Origin: a virus
Lineage: Duplodnaviria; Caudoviricetes
DNA: 64,000 bases
Virus record (IMG/VR): IMGVR_UViG_3300024999_000097
Location: 1,199 to 65,198 of that record
Strand: one strand, 5' to 3'
Position numbers and translations under genes: made by a program
Notes under the pieces: generated by a model
Database searches by the model: none
What the model saw: only the letters and a program-made list of their open reading frames with translations
Told to the model about the DNA's origin: nothing
Shown here: piece by piece, positions 42,067-46,179 of the stretch
How the letters are laid out: every line of letters starts with the position of its first letter
Numbering within the stretch: the first letter of the stretch is position 1

Positions 42067-42928
42067 TTTAATTAGTAGCATCAAAGATCAAATTAAAAGG
42101 TCAGGTGCTAATAAAGGTAAATTTATTTACTTTAAACCAGGAGTAAAAGTCAGAGTAAGATTTTTACACGATATGGATGAGGGAATGAAAATACCTTTCC
42201 ATGATAGTTATCAAAGAGGAATAAATGTTCCTTGTCAGGAATTATTTGGTCGTGATTGTGATAAGTGCGAGGATGAAGAACTGCGTCATAGGGACCTATA
42301 TGCTTGGTCTGTTTATGACTATGATTCTAAGGAAGTAAGAATTCTTATGGGTGCTGTAAATAATGTTTCTCCCGTGCCTGCTTTGGTAGGTATGTATGAA
42401 GCATATGAAACTCTTACCGATCGTGACTATGTAATAACTAAATCAGGTACCGGTACATCAGCAACATTTCAAGTTGTACCAATGGACAAGGTTAAGTTTA
42501 AGAATGATAAAGCTAAACCTTTTAGTGAATCAAAGACTCTTGAGCTTCTTGACAAAGCTTTTCCTAATGATACCGAAGATGATGATGACGATGATAAACC
42601 TGCCAAAGGAAAAGGCGGTAACAAGAAACAAAAAGATGAACCGGAAGATTATAATGAAATGACAGCTAAGCAACTTTACAAACTTTGTCAAGAACGTGAT
42701 ATTGATTGTAAAGCTAAAAAGGATGAAGATTACTATATTGCTTTACTCGAGGAATACGATGAAGAAAATTCCGAAGGTCTTGATTATTCTGAAATGTCTG
42801 CCAAAGAATTGTACAAGCTCTGCCAAGAACGTGACATTAGCTGCAAACCTAAGAAAAGTGAAGAATATTATATTGCTTTACTTGAAGAGGATGATGAAGC
42901 CGAGAAGGATGAAGAAGATGACTGGTAA
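42053..42928 (+). CDS. Single-stranded DNA-binding protein (gp32-like) with duplicated C-terminal helical domain
   Basis: RVRFL, H..C..C..C, WSVYDY, RDYVITKSG; acidic tail ending in W. Confidence 0.7.
   Translation: MAKSSLISSIKDQIKRSGANKGKFIYFKPGVKVRVRFLHDMDEGMKIPFHDSYQRGINVPCQELFGRDCDKCEDEELRHRDLYAWSVYDYDSKEVRILMGAVNNVSPVPALVGMYEAYETLTDRDYVITKSGTGTSATFQVVPMDKVKFKNDKAKPFSESKTLELLDKAFPNDTEDDDDDDKPAKGKGGNKKQKDEPEDYNEMTAKQLYKLCQERDIDCKAKKDEDYYIALLEEYDEENSEGLDYSEMSAKELYKLCQERDISCKPKKSEEYYIALLEEDDEAEKDEEDDW
42647..42889 (+). repeat. 135-bp-period intragenic direct repeat
   Basis: DYxEMxAKxLYKLCQERDIxCKxKKxExYYIALLEE twice (42647, 42782). Confidence 0.85.
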
Positions 42929-43289
42929 AAACTCTTTACATGAGATTTTTGCTAAGCAGATTAAATTTCAACAATTAGTTACTGGAGAAGCCCACTTACC
43001 ACAAGATAATATCGAGTGGGCTTCATATCATGTACTAGGTCTTGTTGAAGAAGTTGGTGAAGTTCTTAAAGCAGATAAACGCTGGAAAACCCATCGTAAT
43101 TCTCATTATGACAAAAGGAACAAACTTGAAGAATTAGCTGATATTTTTATAACATCAACTAATATTGCATTATTTTCTGGCTTTAGTGCTGATGATATTT
43201 ATAAAGCAATATTAGAAAAAATAGAAGTTAATACTTCCAAGTTAGAATTAGAGAGGAGTAAAACTAATAATGCCACTAATAATAGTTGA
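42918..43289 (+). CDS. All-alpha NTP pyrophosphatase (MazG/dimeric dUTPase/dCTPase-like)
   Basis: EEVGEV..WK..EELAD..K..VN. Confidence 0.85.
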   Translation: MTGKNSLHEIFAKQIKFQQLVTGEAHLPQDNIEWASYHVLGLVEEVGEVLKADKRWKTHRNSHYDKRNKLEELADIFITSTNIALFSGFSADDIYKAILEKIEVNTSKLELERSKTNNATNNS

Positions 43290-43764
43290 AGGTATAGATA
43301 GGGTTGGTAAATCAACTTTATGTAGTAAAATATCTGAAGAATTAAAAATCCCCTGTTTCCATGATAAGTTTAAACCTAAGTATTTATATGGTCATTATTC
43401 AAATGAAGTTGCCAATGACTTTATCAAACTTAAAATGGAAATGTTGGTTCAAACTTTGCAATTAGCTGGTAATATAGTAATTGATAGATTTCATCTTACT
43501 GAACTTGTTTATAACTATTTTCGTAATATTATTTGTTTAGAGATAGTTAATTACTATGATAAACTTCTTGCTGAAATGGATGCGGTGTTAATCTTAGTTC
43601 AACCAGAAAATATAAAACTGGCTAGCAAAAATCATGGCAGTGATTTACAAAAACATCATGATTTATTTAATTTTGTTTTTGTAAATAGTTTGATAAAACG
43701 CAAATTTATTACTTCATATAGTCGCTTAGATGAAGCTGTAAAATATGCAAAGCTTTTTAATTAA
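43270..43764 (+). CDS. Nucleoside monophosphate kinase (thymidylate-kinase-like, copy 1)
   Basis: IIVEGIDRVGKST, IDRFHLTELVY. Confidence 0.8.
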   Translation: MPLIIVEGIDRVGKSTLCSKISEELKIPCFHDKFKPKYLYGHYSNEVANDFIKLKMEMLVQTLQLAGNIVIDRFHLTELVYNYFRNIICLEIVNYYDKLLAEMDAVLILVQPENIKLASKNHGSDLQKHHDLFNFVFVNSLIKRKFITSYSRLDEAVKYAKLFN

Positions 43765-43785
43765 TTAATTAAAGAAGGTAATGCT

Positions 43786-44661
43786 ATGAATTATATCATC
43801 GGTGGAAGTACTACCGGATTAGTGCTTCTTGAACTTTTGAAAGGAAAAGGCTATAAGCTATTAACCAATGGAATAGGTGGAAAATTATCAAGTAATGACT
43901 TTTCTTTAGGTCCAAGAATTTTACATAAAACTGAAGCTACAGAAAAGTTTTTATATAATATTGGTTATTTTGAACCACCAACAACTTTTAAAATTGGTTT
44001 TGTTAGAAGTGGCTTTTTAGTTGATGAGGTTACTGAAGAACAAAAGTTAGTTTATTTTCAAAATACAAGAGGTAAGCAAGTAGAAGTAAATAAAACCTTT
44101 TTAAGTGAAGGCAAAAAGGAAATAGTAGGTTGGGATTTAAACGACTTAAATCTTGTTGAAAAATTATATGAAAGGAATCAACAATCTATCATAGATATGA
44201 ATGTTACCTCTATCGATACTTATTTTAAAACAATTAATGATTCTTTAAAGTATGATAATCTCATTTCAACAATAAGTTTAAAGTCTTTATCTGTACTTCT
44301 CGATACTGTCCAGTTATTTAACGAAGTAGTAAAAGAAAAACCTGCTATTTTTACTTTAGTTATCAAGAAACACAATGACTACTTTGACAATAAAGATTTA
44401 AGTTATGTTTATTTTTTAAATCATAAAAATATTAAAAGAATAACAAAGCTTAATGATTCTTTAAGGGTAGTTGAATCAAAAGTGAATATCAGAGAAAATG
44501 ATAACTATTTCCCTTTAAAGTGTATTGCAGTCAATTGTGTTTTAGGTAAAGAATTAAAAATGAAAACTTATAAAGGAATAACTTTAGCTGGACGTTTTGC
44601 TCAATCAGACCATAGTGTTAAGTTAAACAATGTTGTTGAGAGGTTCCAAAATGGAATTTAA
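43786..44661 (+). CDS. FAD-binding oxidoreductase/mutase-like protein
   Basis: YIIGGSTTGL, GG...GPRILH, YDNLISTI, LAGRFAQ. Confidence 0.7.
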   Translation: MNYIIGGSTTGLVLLELLKGKGYKLLTNGIGGKLSSNDFSLGPRILHKTEATEKFLYNIGYFEPPTTFKIGFVRSGFLVDEVTEEQKLVYFQNTRGKQVEVNKTFLSEGKKEIVGWDLNDLNLVEKLYERNQQSIIDMNVTSIDTYFKTINDSLKYDNLISTISLKSLSVLLDTVQLFNEVVKEKPAIFTLVIKKHNDYFDNKDLSYVYFLNHKNIKRITKLNDSLRVVESKVNIRENDNYFPLKCIAVNCVLGKELKMKTYKGITLAGRFAQSDHSVKLNNVVERFQNGI

Positions 44662-45208
44662 AACTTGTATCTTTGATGTTGATGGTGTATTGAATTACTA
44701 TCCAGAATCTTACGTAGATTTTATAAATGATGAATTAAAAACATCTTATGCTGACCTTCATGAAGCTAAAGAAAATATCCCTTATAAAATCTACAAACAG
44801 TTAAAATTAAAGTATCGTGTTTGTGGTGTAAAGCAACAATTACCGGTAAGACTAGATGCTGTAGAAATTTTAGCTGATTTAAGAAAACAAGGGTTTTACA
44901 TTATAATACTTTCATCAAGACCAGTTCATGAAATAAATTCTTTGATAATGCAGACTTCAAGATGGTTGCATAGTAATAATCTATTTTATGACTATCTTCT
45001 GTTTAATAAAGAAAAACACCTTGAAGTTATTAAAAACTTTGATAATGTTACTTTTATTGTAGAAGATAATAGAGCTTATGCTAATTCTATTGCTAAGTAT
45101 GGTGGCTATAAAGTTTATCTTCTAAATAATCAATACAATCAAGGTGAAGTTTGCCCTAAGGTAACAAGAATTAATAGACTAAGAGAAATAGAGGAGTGTT
45201 ATATTTAA
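44651..45208 (+). CDS. HAD-family 5'(3')-nucleotidase-like phosphatase
   Basis: FDVDGVL, LSSRP, K, VEDN, YN. Confidence 0.85.
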   Translation: MEFKTCIFDVDGVLNYYPESYVDFINDELKTSYADLHEAKENIPYKIYKQLKLKYRVCGVKQQLPVRLDAVEILADLRKQGFYIIILSSRPVHEINSLIMQTSRWLHSNNLFYDYLLFNKEKHLEVIKNFDNVTFIVEDNRAYANSIAKYGGYKVYLLNNQYNQGEVCPKVTRINRLREIEECYI

Positions 45209-46179
45209 TGCCAGTAAATAATAACTTAAAACCAACTACTTTCCCAATGCAAATTAAGTTTGATGAAATACCGGTAACTGAGTTTCATAATAACCTTGAA
45301 AATATTGATGTTAAAATAGAATATGCTCCTACAATGGATGACCTTCGCAACTTTGTGCCTAACTTTGCTTTAGCAACTTGGGCTGATAAGCCTGAAATTC
45401 AAGATTTAACAGAAATTGAAAAAGATAAAGCTATCTACATGGTTTTTAGGGAAAAGCTTCTTCCTTCAACTCTTGAAACAATTAGACCTACTTTCCTTTT
45501 AAAAGGTATTTCATATCAGGATGTTACTCATATCCTTCGTTATCGCGGAGCTACTTTCTCAGCTGAATGTTCCGGTGATAAATGGTGGACCGATAAAGAT
45601 GTAGTTGTCCCAACTAGTATTCAAAATAGTCCTGAATTTTATACACGGTATAAGGAGCTTTCAAAACAAATTAAGCAACTTTATTGTGATATGCTTGACT
45701 CACGCGAGATAAGTTTACTTGACGCCAGGTTCATTTTGCATAGAGGAATGGAAACTTATTATCATATGTCAATTAGCCTACGTGAAGCTTTGCATTTCAT
45801 CAAACATAGGATTGATAAGCAAATTCAACCTGATTCTGATAATGTAATAGCTTATCGGATGTGGGAAGCTTTAATTGACCGATATCCGCTTCTTGTAGAC
45901 ATAATTGACATTCATCAACCGGCAATGTTTTATGTAAAAACTGCAAGAACTGGTAGATGTACAAACCTTTTTGTTCCTGATGCTGATACTGATATTTATG
46001 AATGGAATGAAGAAGATTATTTATATGGTAGGACTCGTGACAAAGTTAATGGTACGGATAAAAAGTTAGCTGAATCCTACTATCCGTTTGGTGAAATATT
46101 AAAAAATTTGGATGCTAAGATAGCAAGAATCAAAAAGGAAAACATTGCCAAGTATGGTGAAGACTTCTTTAAAATTTAG
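45208..46179 (+). CDS. Divergent ThyX-family flavin-dependent nucleotide-modifying enzyme
   Basis: LE..TF..GIS..THILRYRGATFSAECSGD, DARFIL, F...R...IQP. Confidence 0.75.
   Translation: MPVNNNLKPTTFPMQIKFDEIPVTEFHNNLENIDVKIEYAPTMDDLRNFVPNFALATWADKPEIQDLTEIEKDKAIYMVFREKLLPSTLETIRPTFLLKGISYQDVTHILRYRGATFSAECSGDKWWTDKDVVVPTSIQNSPEFYTRYKELSKQIKQLYCDMLDSREISLLDARFILHRGMETYYHMSISLREALHFIKHRIDKQIQPDSDNVIAYRMWEALIDRYPLLVDIIDIHQPAMFYVKTARTGRCTNLFVPDADTDIYEWNEEDYLYGRTRDKVNGTDKKLAESYYPFGEILKNLDAKIARIKKENIAKYGEDFFKI

What the first reader, a model, noticed from the sequence alone, without database searches (positions are those of the whole stretch)
42918..46179. Candidate undescribed DNA-base-modification pathway: MazG-like pyrophosphatase, NMP kinase, flavoenzyme, HAD phosphatase and divergent ThyX next to the phage polymerase
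Seen: five tightly packed, mostly overlapping genes between the SSB and dnaE. A complete ordinary dTTP route sits elsewhere (dCMP deaminase 50427, canonical ThyX 59618 with RHRLASYSQESTRY, Tmk 60273), so this block is redundant for thymidine. The second ThyX-family protein is longer (~323 aa) and has an altered signature, RYRGATFSAECSGD (H to Y, and the SxR Arg replaced by Asp). Established: phages that replace a base use a thymidylate-synthase paralog, a dedicated kinase, a pyrophosphatase that removes the normal dNTP and their own polymerase (T4 hmC; SPO1 hmU). Those use ThyA-type folds, where an Asn/Asp swap changes U versus C specificity. Inference: this is a ThyX-based equivalent making a non-canonical pyrimidine nucleotide, with the Glf/protoporphyrinogen-oxidase-like FAD protein and the HAD enzyme tailoring or editing it. 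The product cannot be deduced from sequence.
Basis: partly seen in the sequence, partly recalled or inferred. Interest (0 to 1): 0.85.

Follow-up and report, generated by a model that had tools for sequence, protein, structure and literature searches.

The report
Phage cassette around rewired ThyX enzyme
An uncultured groundwater phage carries, just before its DNA polymerase gene, five tightly linked nucleotide enzymes built round a rewired copy of the thymine-making enzyme ThyX; the set recurs in many phages and probably supplies an unusual thymine-like DNA building block, though ordinary thymidylate synthesis is not excluded.

Summary
The five genes are real and sit at the stated coordinates. 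They are a MazG/dUTPase_2-like pyrophosphatase, a Tmk-family kinase, a PPO/UGM/renalase-fold flavoprotein, a HAD phosphatase and a 323-aa ThyX-fold protein ("ThyXL"). DnaE follows 18 bases later. A canonical ThyX, a canonical Tmk and a dCMP deaminase lie elsewhere in the window.

One detail needs correcting. The canonical loop S-x-R-Y reads C-S-G-D, so the changes are Ser to Cys, Arg to Gly and Tyr to Asp. This holds in 37 of 37 ThyXL. The dUMP-phosphate arginines and the uracil-activating Arg are kept.

Synteny is conserved. Of 36 viral loci, 35 hold a dNMP nucleotidase beside ThyXL: HD in 33, HAD plus flavoprotein in 2. In 19 other loci the flavoprotein is followed by one protein that fuses the window's MazG and HAD.

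The best reading (0.45) is that ThyXL makes a 5-substituted dUMP other than dTMP. A rewired but ordinary thymidylate synthase remains at 0.33. No chemistry was measured.

This scan had already noted the same module on other DNA. In print I found only a hypothesis for a different ThyX-derived family, in SP-15, Carin-5 and YerA41.

The parts
42918..43289 (+). MazG / dUTPase_2-like all-alpha nucleoside-triphosphate pyrophosphatase (123 aa)
   Evidence: Pfam dUTPase_2 29.6 bits and MazG 23.1 bits, both over cut-off. PHROG 173 NTP pyrophosphohydrolase, E 3e-9. ATG at 42918. Homologous to the N-terminal half of MazG-HAD fusion proteins in other phages.
43270..43764 (+). Short Tmk-family nucleoside-monophosphate kinase (164 aa); a second kinase besides the canonical Tmk
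   Evidence: A profile of 12 orthologues hits yeast thymidylate kinase 1tmk at E 1e-10 and SPbeta YorR 2axp at E 1e-8. P-loop and DRFHLTE..Y motif are conserved. Below the family cut-offs: Pfam 24.9 against 27, TIGR00041 24.9 against 83.25.
43786..44661 (+). Minimal FAD/NAD-Rossmann flavoprotein of the PPO / UGM / renalase / amine-oxidase fold (291 aa)
   Evidence: No Pfam or PHROG match. AF2 pLDDT 92.7. Foldseek PPO 3i6d, UGM, renalase 4zcc and MAO, E about 1e-9, probability 1.0. 506 cluster representatives at E<=0.001. Atlas neighbours are viral clusters.
44630..45208 (+). HAD-superfamily phosphatase, probably a 5'(3')-deoxyribonucleotidase (192 aa)
   Evidence: FDVDGVL motif. Pfam Hydrolase 23.8 bits, below cut-off. 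PHROG 415 and 2643 (5'-3' deoxyribonucleotidase). Homologous (E 1e-11 to 1e-28) to the C-terminal half of 19 MazG-HAD fusions, whose HAD half hits NT5C.
45208..46179 (+). ThyXL: Cys-type ThyX-fold enzyme (323 aa) with the catalytic loop C-S-G-D in place of S-x-R-Y
   Evidence: Thy1 61.3 bits. AF2 pLDDT 86.8. Foldseek top hits are all ThyX or PolB structures. TIGR02170 32.7 bits against a cut-off of 87.9. Residue mapping.
46197..48881 (+). DnaE-type (Pol III alpha / PHP) DNA polymerase, directly downstream
   Evidence: Read from 46197: PHP 127.6 bits starting at profile position 1, DNA_pol3_alpha 210.9 bits. Relatives start MIDLHRHDE where the window reads V-I-D-L-H-R-H-D-E.
50403..50834 (+). 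dCMP deaminase (supplies dUMP)
   Evidence: Pfam dCMP_cyt_deam_1 61.2 bits.
57965..58774 (+). SAM-dependent methyltransferase; possible accessory of this variant of the cassette
   Evidence: Methyltransf_23 52.3 bits. Weak UbiG and CmoB matches, below cut-off. Found in both other loci that carry flavoprotein plus HAD (L004, L009); in L009 it lies between ThyXL and DnaE.
59618..60280 (+). Canonical ThyX (flavin-dependent thymidylate synthase)
   Evidence: Thy1 151 bits. TIGR02170 116.2 bits against 87.9. Motif RHRLASYSQESTRY.
60273..60848 (+). Canonical thymidylate kinase
   Evidence: Thymidylate_kin 106.7 bits over the full profile. TIGR00041 101.1 bits against 83.25. No ATG, GTG or TTG start before the P-loop.

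Best explanation
The block is a pre-replicative pyrimidine-pool cassette. ThyXL keeps the ThyX fold, the dUMP-phosphate arginines and the arginine that activates uracil. It has exchanged the Ser/Arg/Tyr trio that drives and shields methylene transfer for Cys/Gly/Asp.

I infer the following steps:
1. ThyXL still takes dUMP, which the phage's dCMP deaminase supplies, but releases a 5-substituted dUMP other than dTMP. The most likely product is 5-hydroxymethyl-dUMP. The open, acidic site would let water or another nucleophile capture the exocyclic methylene in place of hydride.
2. The short Tmk-like kinase phosphorylates that product.
3. The MazG-like pyrophosphatase and the HAD nucleotidase act in series (dNTP to dNMP to deoxynucleoside) to drain a competing canonical pyrimidine nucleotide.
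4. The flavoprotein finishes that drain, or tailors or reduces something for ThyXL.
5. The adjacent DnaE-type polymerase uses the new dNTP.

Because this phage also makes dTTP, replacement of T would be partial.

Shown here: the gene identities at fold or family level, the rewritten loop, and the conserved linkage. Inferred: the substrate, the product, the targets of MazG and HAD, the role of the flavoprotein, and incorporation into DNA.
For: 1. Catalytic loop.
- C-(S/T)-(G/A)-D in 37 of 37 ThyXL, against S-(Q/T)-R-Y in 8 of 8 canonical phage ThyX.
- Only 12 of 47 canonical-invariant positions are kept. The kept ones include R111, R113, R174 and R201 in 323-aa numbering. By alignment to the window's own ThyX, and by my recalled +3 offset, these are T. 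maritima R78, R80, R147 and R174.
- In T. maritima ThyX, S88A, R90A and Y91A slow carbinolamine consumption, Y91A by more than 100-fold. R174 activates dUMP by N3 deprotonation (PMC8316439, passages; PMC11940539, passage).
- The Tyr is described as a lid that shields dUMP C5 and flavin N5 from solvent (PMC6514825, passage).

2. Non-redundancy.
- ThyXL scores 32.7 bits against the TIGR02170 cut-off of 87.9, and the kinase 24.9 against 83.25. The window's other ThyX and Tmk pass, at 116.2 and 101.1.
- A canonical ThyX also co-occurs with ThyXL in G005 and G009. It is 54% identical to the window's and lies at other positions.
- A full ThyA co-occurs in G024 and G031.

3. Linkage, in 36 ThyXL loci.
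- HD/YfbR-like nucleotidase in 33, NDT-like in 32, flavoprotein plus HAD in 2, MazG in 28, kinase in 28, DnaE in 25.
- Flavoprotein plus HAD occupy exactly the slot of NDT plus HD between the kinase and ThyXL.

4. Fusion evidence.
- In 19 further loci the gene after the flavoprotein homologue fuses the window's MazG (N-terminal half) and HAD (C-terminal half).

5. A second family.
- A more divergent ThyX-like protein abuts the flavoprotein in L048, L050/51, L054, L060/61 and L064.
- Canonical ThyX lies in the same clusters in L048, L050/51, L054, L061 and L064. dCMP deaminase and a Tmk-type kinase lie there too, as verified for L050.

6. Phage-restricted.
- Only 1 of 399 sampled Clostridia genomes has a strong hit, and that is a binned phage contig. 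The 148 others score 24-55 bits.
- Three MAG contigs were found in the species-genome collection.

7. Published parallels.
- T-hypermodified SP-15 has two Thy1 proteins; the divergent one is hypothesised to be the hmdUMP synthase (PMC5977210, passages).
- Its family is present in Carin-5 and YerA41. In Carin-5 a pyrophosphatase lies beside it and an oxidoreductase nearby.
- An NDT-family enzyme, DmtZ, destroys dAMP in Z-genome phages (PMC12884076, abstract and passages).
Against: - No chemistry or DNA composition was measured. Every functional step is inference.
- The window keeps a complete dTTP route. T therefore cannot be fully replaced, and a dTTP/dTMP-destroying role for MazG and HAD would be futile here.
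- In 14 of 16 near-complete ThyXL genomes, ThyXL is the only full-scoring TS-type gene. That is also what a plain thymidylate synthase would look like.
- The best family hits of MazG and the kinase are dUTPase_2 and thymidylate kinase, the usual dTTP trio.
- The window avoids GATC (59 seen, 149 expected, z -8.7), GATATC (3 against 19.6) and GAATTC (6 against 17.8). The genome was also assembled from ordinary 2014 metagenome runs. Both argue against a bulky, restriction-proof modification.
- No glycosyltransferase, aGPT-Pplase-type transferase or UDG turned up. I scanned 26 window proteins against Pfam and ran one whole-record UDG scan. The structural half of the genome was not scanned.
- SP-15 gp130 is not detectably related to ThyXL beyond the fold (hhalign probability 0.2%).
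Confidence: 0.45

Rival explanations
1. Ordinary product by a new route. ThyXL is a mechanistically rewired thymidylate synthase that still makes dTMP, perhaps with the Cys as a ThyA-like nucleophile. The block is then a dTTP-supply and pool-rebalancing cassette for an AT-rich phage. MazG would act as a dUTPase, the kinase as a TMP kinase, and HAD/HD plus NDT or the flavoprotein would recycle host dNMPs. The DNA would be canonical.
For: - The best family hits are dUTPase_2, thymidylate kinase and Thy1.
- The dUMP-binding and uracil-activating arginines are kept.
- ThyXL is the only full TS-type gene in 14 of 16 near-complete genomes.
- Palindrome avoidance and ordinary sequencing fit unmodified DNA.
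- The window is 68% A+T.
- Earlier notes of this scan report that a sister ThyX-fold family sits beside dihydrofolate reductase in Clostridia. I did not check this.
Against: - Three residues called strictly conserved and kinetically critical in ThyX are replaced in all 37 ThyXL.
- A canonical ThyX plus Tmk in the window, a canonical ThyX in G005 and G009, and a full ThyA in G024 and G031 would be redundant.
- ThyXL itself was not found in cellular chromosomes among those searched.
- A thymidylate synthase is not normally tied to a dNMP nucleotidase, yet 35 of 36 loci have one.
Confidence: 0.33
2. Cytosine-directed, T4-like scheme. The cassette replaces C. MazG would be a dCTPase, the kinase would act on a 5-substituted dCMP, and ThyXL would be either the dCMP-modifying enzyme or merely the thymidylate synthase beside it.
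For: - This fits the window's intact dTTP route.
- In 10 loci a roughly 200-aa mini-ThyA lies directly after ThyXL (L008 has a 302-aa ThyA-like protein about 70 bases further on). All 11 carry the catalytic Cys, and Asp where the two true ThyA and L037's 247-aa protein have Asn. That Asn to Asp marks dCMP specificity in T4 gp42 is my recollection.
- Earlier notes of this scan favoured modified cytosine for related modules.
Against: - The window has no ThyA-like gene (PF00303: 0 matches at E<=1).
- ThyXL keeps the Arg that, per PMC8316439, activates dUMP by deprotonating N3. Cytosine has no such proton.
- The mini-ThyA is accessory (11 of 36 loci), while MazG, kinase and nucleotidase persist without it, for example in L007, L020, L021 and L025.
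- Dephosphorylating dCMP would waste the precursor.
Confidence: 0.1
3. The product is not for DNA. The cassette would make or destroy a free nucleoside, base or nucleotide analogue, in the way the ThyX paralogue PolB serves polyoxin synthesis. Alternatively it only starves the host of a deoxynucleotide during takeover.
For: - PolB shows that a ThyX paralogue can serve a secondary-metabolite pathway (PMC5954106, passage; Foldseek hit 4p5b).
- MazG to HAD ends at a nucleoside, and the flavoprotein could oxidise it (inference).
Against: - The cassette sits inside the replication module, directly before the polymerase, in 25 of 36 loci.
- A dedicated NMP kinase points to a triphosphate as the end product.
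Confidence: 0.07

Closest known systems
Canonical flavin-dependent thymidylate synthase ThyX/FDTS (Pfam Thy1 PF02511, TIGR02170; T. maritima, M. tuberculosis, PBCV-1 structures)
   Same: Same fold: Foldseek E about 1e-9, probability 1.0. Thy1 scores over its cut-off. The RxR pair and the two later arginines are kept.
   Different: - About 100 residues longer, with conserved N- and C-terminal extensions.
- S-x-R-Y is replaced by C-S-G-D in 37 of 37.
- The His I recall as T. maritima H53 is Leu in 37 of 37.
- 32.7 bits against the equivalog cut-off of 87.9.
- phmmer finds no PDB sequence at E<=0.01.
ThyX-derived 'thymidylate synthase variants' of T-hypermodified phages: SP-15 gp130, Carin-5 gp049, YerA41 gp081
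   Same: - A divergent Thy1-type protein sits beside an ordinary one (SP-15 gp9) in a phage whose T is partly replaced. It is hypothesised to be the hmdUMP synthase (PMC5977210, passages).
- Similar company: NDT, HD/YfbR nucleotidase and UDG in SP-15; a pyrophosphatase and an oxidoreductase in Carin-5.
   Different: - A different clade of about 390-413 aa, with no significant profile match to ThyXL.
- Those phages use UDG-fused A-family polymerases and carry bulky glycosylated T that hampers sequencing (PMC13697223, abstract and passages).
- This phage has DnaE and no UDG, and it sequenced normally.
Pre-replicative pyrimidine replacement in SPO1/phi-e (hmU) and T4 (hmC): TS paralogue, dNTPase, dNMP kinase, deaminase (recalled, not from a call)
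   Same: The same logic and the same set of activities, next to the phage's own polymerase.
   Different: - Those use ThyA-fold hydroxymethylases. Here the candidate has a ThyX fold.
- A flavoprotein and a nucleotidase are added.
- In the window the canonical dTTP route is retained.
DmtZ and other NDT-family enzymes of Z-genome phages
   Same: An NDT-family enzyme that destroys the canonical dNMP in a base-replacing phage (PMC12884076, abstract and passages). NDT-like domains lie beside ThyXL in 32 of 36 loci.
   Different: That system is purine-directed. The window itself has no NDT: a flavoprotein occupies that slot.
Geobacillus phage GR1 (OK896991.1), the only cultured carrier found
   Same: ThyXL at 47% identity over 87% of its length. 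NDT, HD, a P-loop NTPase and a PHP polymerase are nearby.
   Different: - GR1 has a nitroreductase directly upstream of ThyXL, in place of the PPO-like flavoprotein.
- It also has a glycosyltransferase, an amidoligase and a gamma-glutamylcyclotransferase.
- No paper on GR1 is in the library searched.

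Membership tests
ThyX / FDTS (EC 2.1.1.148) | ThyX (Thy1) fold and Pfam score over the gathering cut-off | tested here: met
   Thy1 61.3 bits against 24.8. 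The Foldseek top hits are all ThyX or PolB.
ThyX / FDTS (EC 2.1.1.148) | NCBIfam equivalog TIGR02170 score over its cut-off | tested here: not met
   32.7 bits against 87.9. The window's canonical ThyX scores 116.2.
ThyX / FDTS (EC 2.1.1.148) | Signature RHR-x7-S-x-R-Y (Ser88, Arg90, Tyr91 of T. maritima) | tested here: not met
   C-S-G-D in the window, and C-(S/T)-(G/A)-D in 37 of 37 ThyXL.
ThyX / FDTS (EC 2.1.1.148) | dUMP-phosphate arginines and the uracil-activating Arg174 | tested here: met
   R111, R113, R174 and R201 are kept in 37 of 37 by alignment. The mapping to T. maritima numbers is recalled.
ThyX / FDTS (EC 2.1.1.148) | Binds FAD and converts dUMP to dTMP with CH2-THF and NAD(P)H | not testable with these tools
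   No model coordinates or ligand scoring were available. The activity needs a bench assay.
Thymidylate kinase (TIGR00041 / PF02223) | Family score over the cut-off across the full length | tested here: not met
   Pfam 24.9 bits against 27, P-loop only. TIGR00041 24.9 bits against 83.25. The profile is nearest to Tmk structures, so it belongs to the superfamily but is not an equivalog.
All-alpha NTP pyrophosphatases (MazG / dimeric dUTPase) | Pfam score over the cut-off | tested here: met
   dUTPase_2 29.6 bits against 22.9; MazG 23.1 bits against 22. Substrate specificity was not testable.
HAD superfamily 5'(3')-deoxyribonucleotidase (NT5C-like) | DxDx(T/V) motif and family score | tested here: inconclusive
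   FDVDGVL is present. Pfam Hydrolase scores 23.8 bits against 26.4. Fused orthologues reach NT5C at 24.8 bits (equal to the cut-off) and 22.0 bits.
FAD-dependent PPO / amine oxidase / UGM / renalase fold | Two-domain Rossmann fold with an N-terminal GxGxxG | tested here: met
   Foldseek probability 1.0. The family consensus is GGGxxG; the window reads GGSTTG, with Ser at a position that is Gly in 90% or more of members. No Pfam family matches. FAD binding is untested.
Pre-replicative base-replacement system (T4 / SPO1 type) | No canonical route for the base that is replaced, and a modified base in virion DNA | tested here: not met
   For T, the canonical ThyX and Tmk are intact. Virion DNA cannot be tested here.

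The most novel reading that the evidence does not exclude
ThyXL is a ThyX-fold, cysteine-dependent dUMP hydroxymethylase, or some other C5-adduct synthase. Loss of the Tyr lid and gain of an Asp would let water or another nucleophile, not hydride, capture the exocyclic methylene. MazG, HAD and the flavoprotein would form a three-step, irreversible drain of a competing deoxynucleotide: triphosphate to monophosphate to nucleoside to oxidised nucleoside. In most relatives HD plus an NDT-type hydrolase would do the last two steps. On this reading a widespread, so far uncultured group of about 45-65 kb phages of Clostridia-like hosts carries partly or wholly replaced thymine, made by an enzyme fold never shown to do this.
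Probability: 0.3. Interest if true: 0.85.

Novelty: new variant of a known kind. Interest (0 to 1): 0.62.

Why it matters
If ThyXL makes something other than dTMP, it would be the first ThyX-fold enzyme with a demonstrated non-thymidylate DNA-precursor product. It would also show that the flavin-type synthase was recruited for base replacement in the same way as the ThyA type in T4 and SPO1. That would flag hundreds of metagenomic phages as carriers of non-canonical DNA, since 498 homologues were found at E<=0.001.

If it makes dTMP, it is still a thymidylate synthase that works without three residues held to be essential. That bears on the ThyX mechanism and on ThyX as a drug target.

Either way, two results are reusable annotation rules for phage nucleotide modules. 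One is the MazG-HAD fusion. The other is the interchangeable pairs, flavoprotein plus HAD against NDT plus HD.

Tried and rejected
- DNA-level search of cultured phages found nothing.
- tblastn of the kinase, the flavoprotein, the L050 ThyX-like protein and the L050 flavoprotein against cultured phages found nothing.
- Single-sequence phmmer against PDB gave nothing useful for ThyXL, the flavoprotein, MazG or HAD.
- A single-protein pattern scan of viral contigs found no relative. An alignment was needed.
- The word-based homologue search for the flavoprotein found only 2 proteins. The exhaustive profile search found 506.
- Complex prediction of ThyXL with the flavoprotein gave 'no answer', score 0.00. 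This is no evidence either way, so the idea that the flavoprotein is a bound reductase partner stays untested.
- Sequencing runs: 4 DNA holders from one groundwater study, all kept as contigs, and no RNA holder listed. No raw or long reads could show base-calling anomalies.
- hhalign of the ThyXL profile against SP-15 gp130 gave no significant match. I therefore do not file ThyXL in that family.
- I considered the kinase as a 5-hmdU DNA kinase and rejected it. Its profile is nearest to thymidylate kinases and it has the Tmk DR-motif. I ran no direct comparison with a 5-HMUDK sequence.
- I considered cytosine as the substrate and ranked it low (see rivals).
- FAD-binding residues could not be mapped. 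The papers I opened did not list them in the passages found, and model coordinates are not exposed.
- The supplements of the papers, for example Supplementary Fig. 13 of PMC8316439 on conservation, were not seen.

The statement that this ThyX clade is not in print rests on searches of the held library only.

Full report
**Source and layout.** The window is 64,000 of the 65,198 bases of one IMG/VR virus record that CheckV rates complete. It is 29-40% G+C, and nearly all long ORFs lie on the + strand. The only public runs that hold it are contigs from one groundwater study.

**The five genes.** They lie between a gene of unknown family (42053-42928, no Pfam match) and a DnaE-type polymerase.
- MazG-like, 42918-43289.
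- Kinase, 43270-43764.
- A 291-aa protein, 43786-44661.
- HAD, 44630-45208.
- A ThyX-like gene, 45208-46179, whose ATG shares a base with the HAD stop.

The polymerase gene follows 18 bases later if it is read from 46197. Relatives start MIDLHRHDE there, and the PHP domain matches from its first profile position.

**What the proteins are.**
- MazG-like: over the Pfam cut-offs for dUTPase_2 and MazG.
- Kinase: Pfam sees only its P-loop. A profile of 12 orthologues is nearest to thymidylate kinases (1tmk, E 1e-10) and SPbeta YorR, and the Tmk-type DR motif is conserved. It fails TIGR00041 at 24.9 bits against 83.25.
- The 291-aa protein: no Pfam or PHROG match. It folds with pLDDT 92.7 into the PPO/UGM/renalase/amine-oxidase flavoprotein fold. 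Its family has 506 cluster representatives, and the protein atlas lists its neighbours as viral.
- HAD: it has the DxDxV motif. By its fused relatives it is closest to NT5C-type deoxyribonucleotidases.
- ThyXL: a ThyX fold, with pLDDT 86.8 and Foldseek top hits that are all ThyX or PolB.

**The ordinary route is present too.** The window holds a dCMP deaminase, a canonical ThyX and a canonical Tmk. The ThyX and the Tmk pass NCBI's equivalog cut-offs. The window therefore has two ThyX-fold proteins and two Tmk-family kinases, one canonical and one aberrant of each.

**The active site.**
- Profile and ungapped alignments put C-S-G-D of ThyXL on S-x-R-Y of ThyX. I compared 8 canonical phage ThyX with 37 ThyXL. 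The loop is S-(Q/T)-R-Y in 8 of 8 and C-(S/T)-(G/A)-D in 37 of 37.
- Of 47 positions invariant in the canonical set, 12 are kept in ThyXL. Among them are both arginines of RxR and the two later arginines.
[quoted passage not shown] R174 activates dUMP by N3 deprotonation.
- From a further passage: the Tyr is a lid that shields dUMP C5 and flavin N5 from solvent.
- ThyXL thus keeps what binds and activates dUMP, and has changed what drives and shields methylene transfer. My inference is that the substrate is still a uracil nucleotide and the outcome of the carbon transfer differs. A Cys near C6 and an Asp in an opened site would suit capture of the exocyclic methylene by water. This is inference, not a result.

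**Is the block conserved?** Yes.
- ThyXL has 498 homologues at E<=0.001 among 1,179 candidates scored. The 120 best listed all carry Thy1 and are 274-351 aa long.
- I fetched 36 viral loci. Within 8 kb of ThyXL an iterated search finds an HD/YfbR-like 5'-deoxynucleotidase in 33 and an NDT-like domain in 32, often fused to the kinase. It finds MazG in 28, the kinase in 28 and DnaE in 25. Several loci are cut by contig ends.
- The exact five-gene form of the window recurs in two loci, L004 and L009. There the flavoprotein plus HAD occupy the slot that NDT plus HD occupy elsewhere.
- So 35 of 36 loci place a dNMP nucleotidase next to ThyXL. The exception, L036, is cut 866 bases upstream.

**The flavoprotein's own neighbourhoods.** These were searched separately.
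- I found 23 loci. Two of them are the L004 and L009 contigs again.
- In 19 loci the next gene is a 310-349 aa protein. Its N-terminal half matches the window's MazG (E 1e-5 to 1e-11 in 14 of the 19) and its C-terminal half matches the window's HAD (E 1e-11 to 1e-28 in all 19). This fusion says the two enzymes act together, most simply as dNTP to dNMP to deoxynucleoside.
- In L048, L050/51, L054, L060/61 and L064 a more divergent ThyX-like protein (349-377 aa; Thy1 45.9 bits for L050) lies just upstream of the flavoprotein.
- The same clusters hold a canonical ThyX in L048, L050/51, L054, L061 and L064. L050, which I scanned in full, also holds a dCMP deaminase, a Tmk and a UDG-fused DnaE.
- L042 has the window's architecture with that second type of ThyX-like protein.
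- A rewired ThyX, this flavoprotein and MazG/HAD therefore travel together in unrelated phage backbones, often beside an ordinary ThyX.

**Redundancy.** Across whole records, ThyXL is the only Thy1 match in 34 of 37.
- A canonical ThyX co-occurs in the window, G005 and G009. The canonical ThyX genes of G005 and G009 are 54% identical to the window's; in G009 the gene's position among shared neighbours differs from the window's.
- A full ThyA co-occurs in G024 and G031, at 211 and 250 bits.
- Of 16 near-complete genomes, 14 have no second full-scoring TS.
- Ten loci carry a roughly 200-aa mini-ThyA directly after ThyXL; L008 has a 302-aa ThyA-like protein about 70 bases further on. All have the catalytic Cys, and Asp where the true ThyAs have Asn. 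The window has none.
- ThyXL is phage-restricted among what I searched. There were 3 MAG contigs in the species-genome collection. One of 399 sampled Clostridia genomes had a strong hit, on a binned phage contig; 148 others had only 24-55 bit hits of about 220-320 aa, which I take to be their ordinary ThyX.

**Literature.**
- I found no paper on this clade.
- The nearest in print is Bacillus phage SP-15. About half of its T is a hypermodified base. It has two Thy1 proteins, and the authors hypothesise that the divergent one, gp130, is the hmdUMP synthase (PMC5977210, passages).
- gp130 relatives occur in Carin-5 and YerA41. Passages I read describe SP-15, Carin-5 and YerA41 as T-hypermodified (PMC13697223 and PMC12686479).
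- SP-15 also encodes NDT, a YfbR-type nucleotidase and a UDG. Carin-5 has a pyrophosphatase beside the gene.
- gp130 is not detectably related to ThyXL beyond the fold.
- In Z-genome phages an NDT-family enzyme destroys dAMP (PMC12884076). That gives a precedent for the NDT domains beside ThyXL.

**Weighing.**
- For a non-thymidylate product: the rewritten, family-wide loop; the failed equivalog tests beside passing paralogues; co-occurrence with three kinds of ordinary TS; the near-universal tie to nucleotide-destroying enzymes; phage restriction; and the published parallels.
- Against: no chemistry at all, and the intact dTTP route in this very phage, which limits any T replacement to a part and makes a dTTP/dTMP target for MazG/HAD unlikely here. 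Most complete genomes have ThyXL as their sole TS-type gene. The dUTPase/Tmk/ThyX flavour of the best hits also counts against it. So does marked avoidance of GATC, GATATC and GAATTC, together with uneventful short-read assembly, both of which argue against a bulky modification.
- I put 0.45 on a non-dTMP 5-substituted dUMP, 0.33 on a rewired but ordinary thymidylate synthase, 0.10 on a cytosine-directed scheme and 0.07 on a product not meant for DNA.

**Relation to earlier scan notes.** The scan had already met this module on other DNA. Those notes gave me the YerA41/Carin-5 lead and the rival reading that ThyX-fold sister families make dTMP.
- the flavoprotein/HAD variant of the cassette;
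- the MazG-HAD fusion;
- the slot-for-slot exchange with NDT/HD;
- the residue tally against canonical phage ThyX;
- the test that ThyXL itself is not a chromosomal gene in sampled Clostridia.

Noticed in passing
window 46173-46400: The DnaE frame is open from 46173 and encodes the PHP motif IDLHRHDEYSNFDG upstream of the first ATG (46374). There is no in-frame ATG, GTG or TTG before it. Relatives L004 and L009 start MIDLHRHDE, where the window reads GTT ATC. The start is therefore probably ATC at 46197, after an AGAAGGTG Shine-Dalgarno-like stretch, or else the start codon is mutated.
   Followed up: partly
window 60264-60480: The canonical Tmk likewise has no ATG, GTG or TTG before its P-loop (…KINRIICIEGIDGSGKS…). 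It overlaps the end of the canonical ThyX gene. It probably uses an ATT, ATA or ATC start.
   Followed up: partly
whole window: Short palindromes are strongly avoided: GATC 59 seen against 149 expected (z -8.7), CTAG O/E 0.70, CATG 0.75, GATATC 3 against 19.6, GAATTC 6 against 17.8.
   Followed up: partly
L005:9002-9598, L012:8979-9581, L026:8956-9543, L031:8936-9547, L037:3539-4192 and five more loci: A roughly 200-aa 'mini-ThyA' lies directly after ThyXL. It has the catalytic Cys and RSCD, and Asp where true ThyA has Asn. Its weak NCBIfam match is to the short methanogen-type thymidylate synthase. It is absent from the window.
   Followed up: partly
L050:7878-11861; L052:8111-9022; L008:6296-7012: UDG-superfamily domains occur in the related cassettes. 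One is fused to the N-terminus of the DnaE polymerase (L050), one is fused to a Tmk-like kinase (L052), and one is free-standing between kinase and NDT (L008). The window's record has no UDG match.
   Followed up: partly
L048:4640-5689, L050:4907-5980, L054:4847-5980, L060:348-1475, L064:4711-5790, L042:7389-8378: A second, more divergent ThyX-like family with loop G-T-R-D (G-M-R-D in L042). It has a Cys-rich C-terminal extension (RPxCD…C.YH…CCGRWP), possibly a metal site. A third, RxR-less form (270-289 aa, loop I-G-C-R-D) occurs in L049, L052 and L056.
   Followed up: no
It ends in two tandem copies of a roughly 35-aa motif (…AKxLYKLCQERDIxCKxKKxExYYIALLEE…) separated by acidic runs.
   Followed up: no
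L017:8957-9940; L052:9019-9945: An RmlD/NAD-dependent epimerase-dehydratase-like gene sits inside two different versions of the cassette. This hints at sugar-nucleotide chemistry in some relatives.
   Followed up: no
window 53474-57600: Downstream module of DUF4326 plus a RuvC-like region, DUF7192, an AAA_5 ATPase and a 261-aa protein with no family. The function is unknown and was not linked to the cassette.
   Followed up: no
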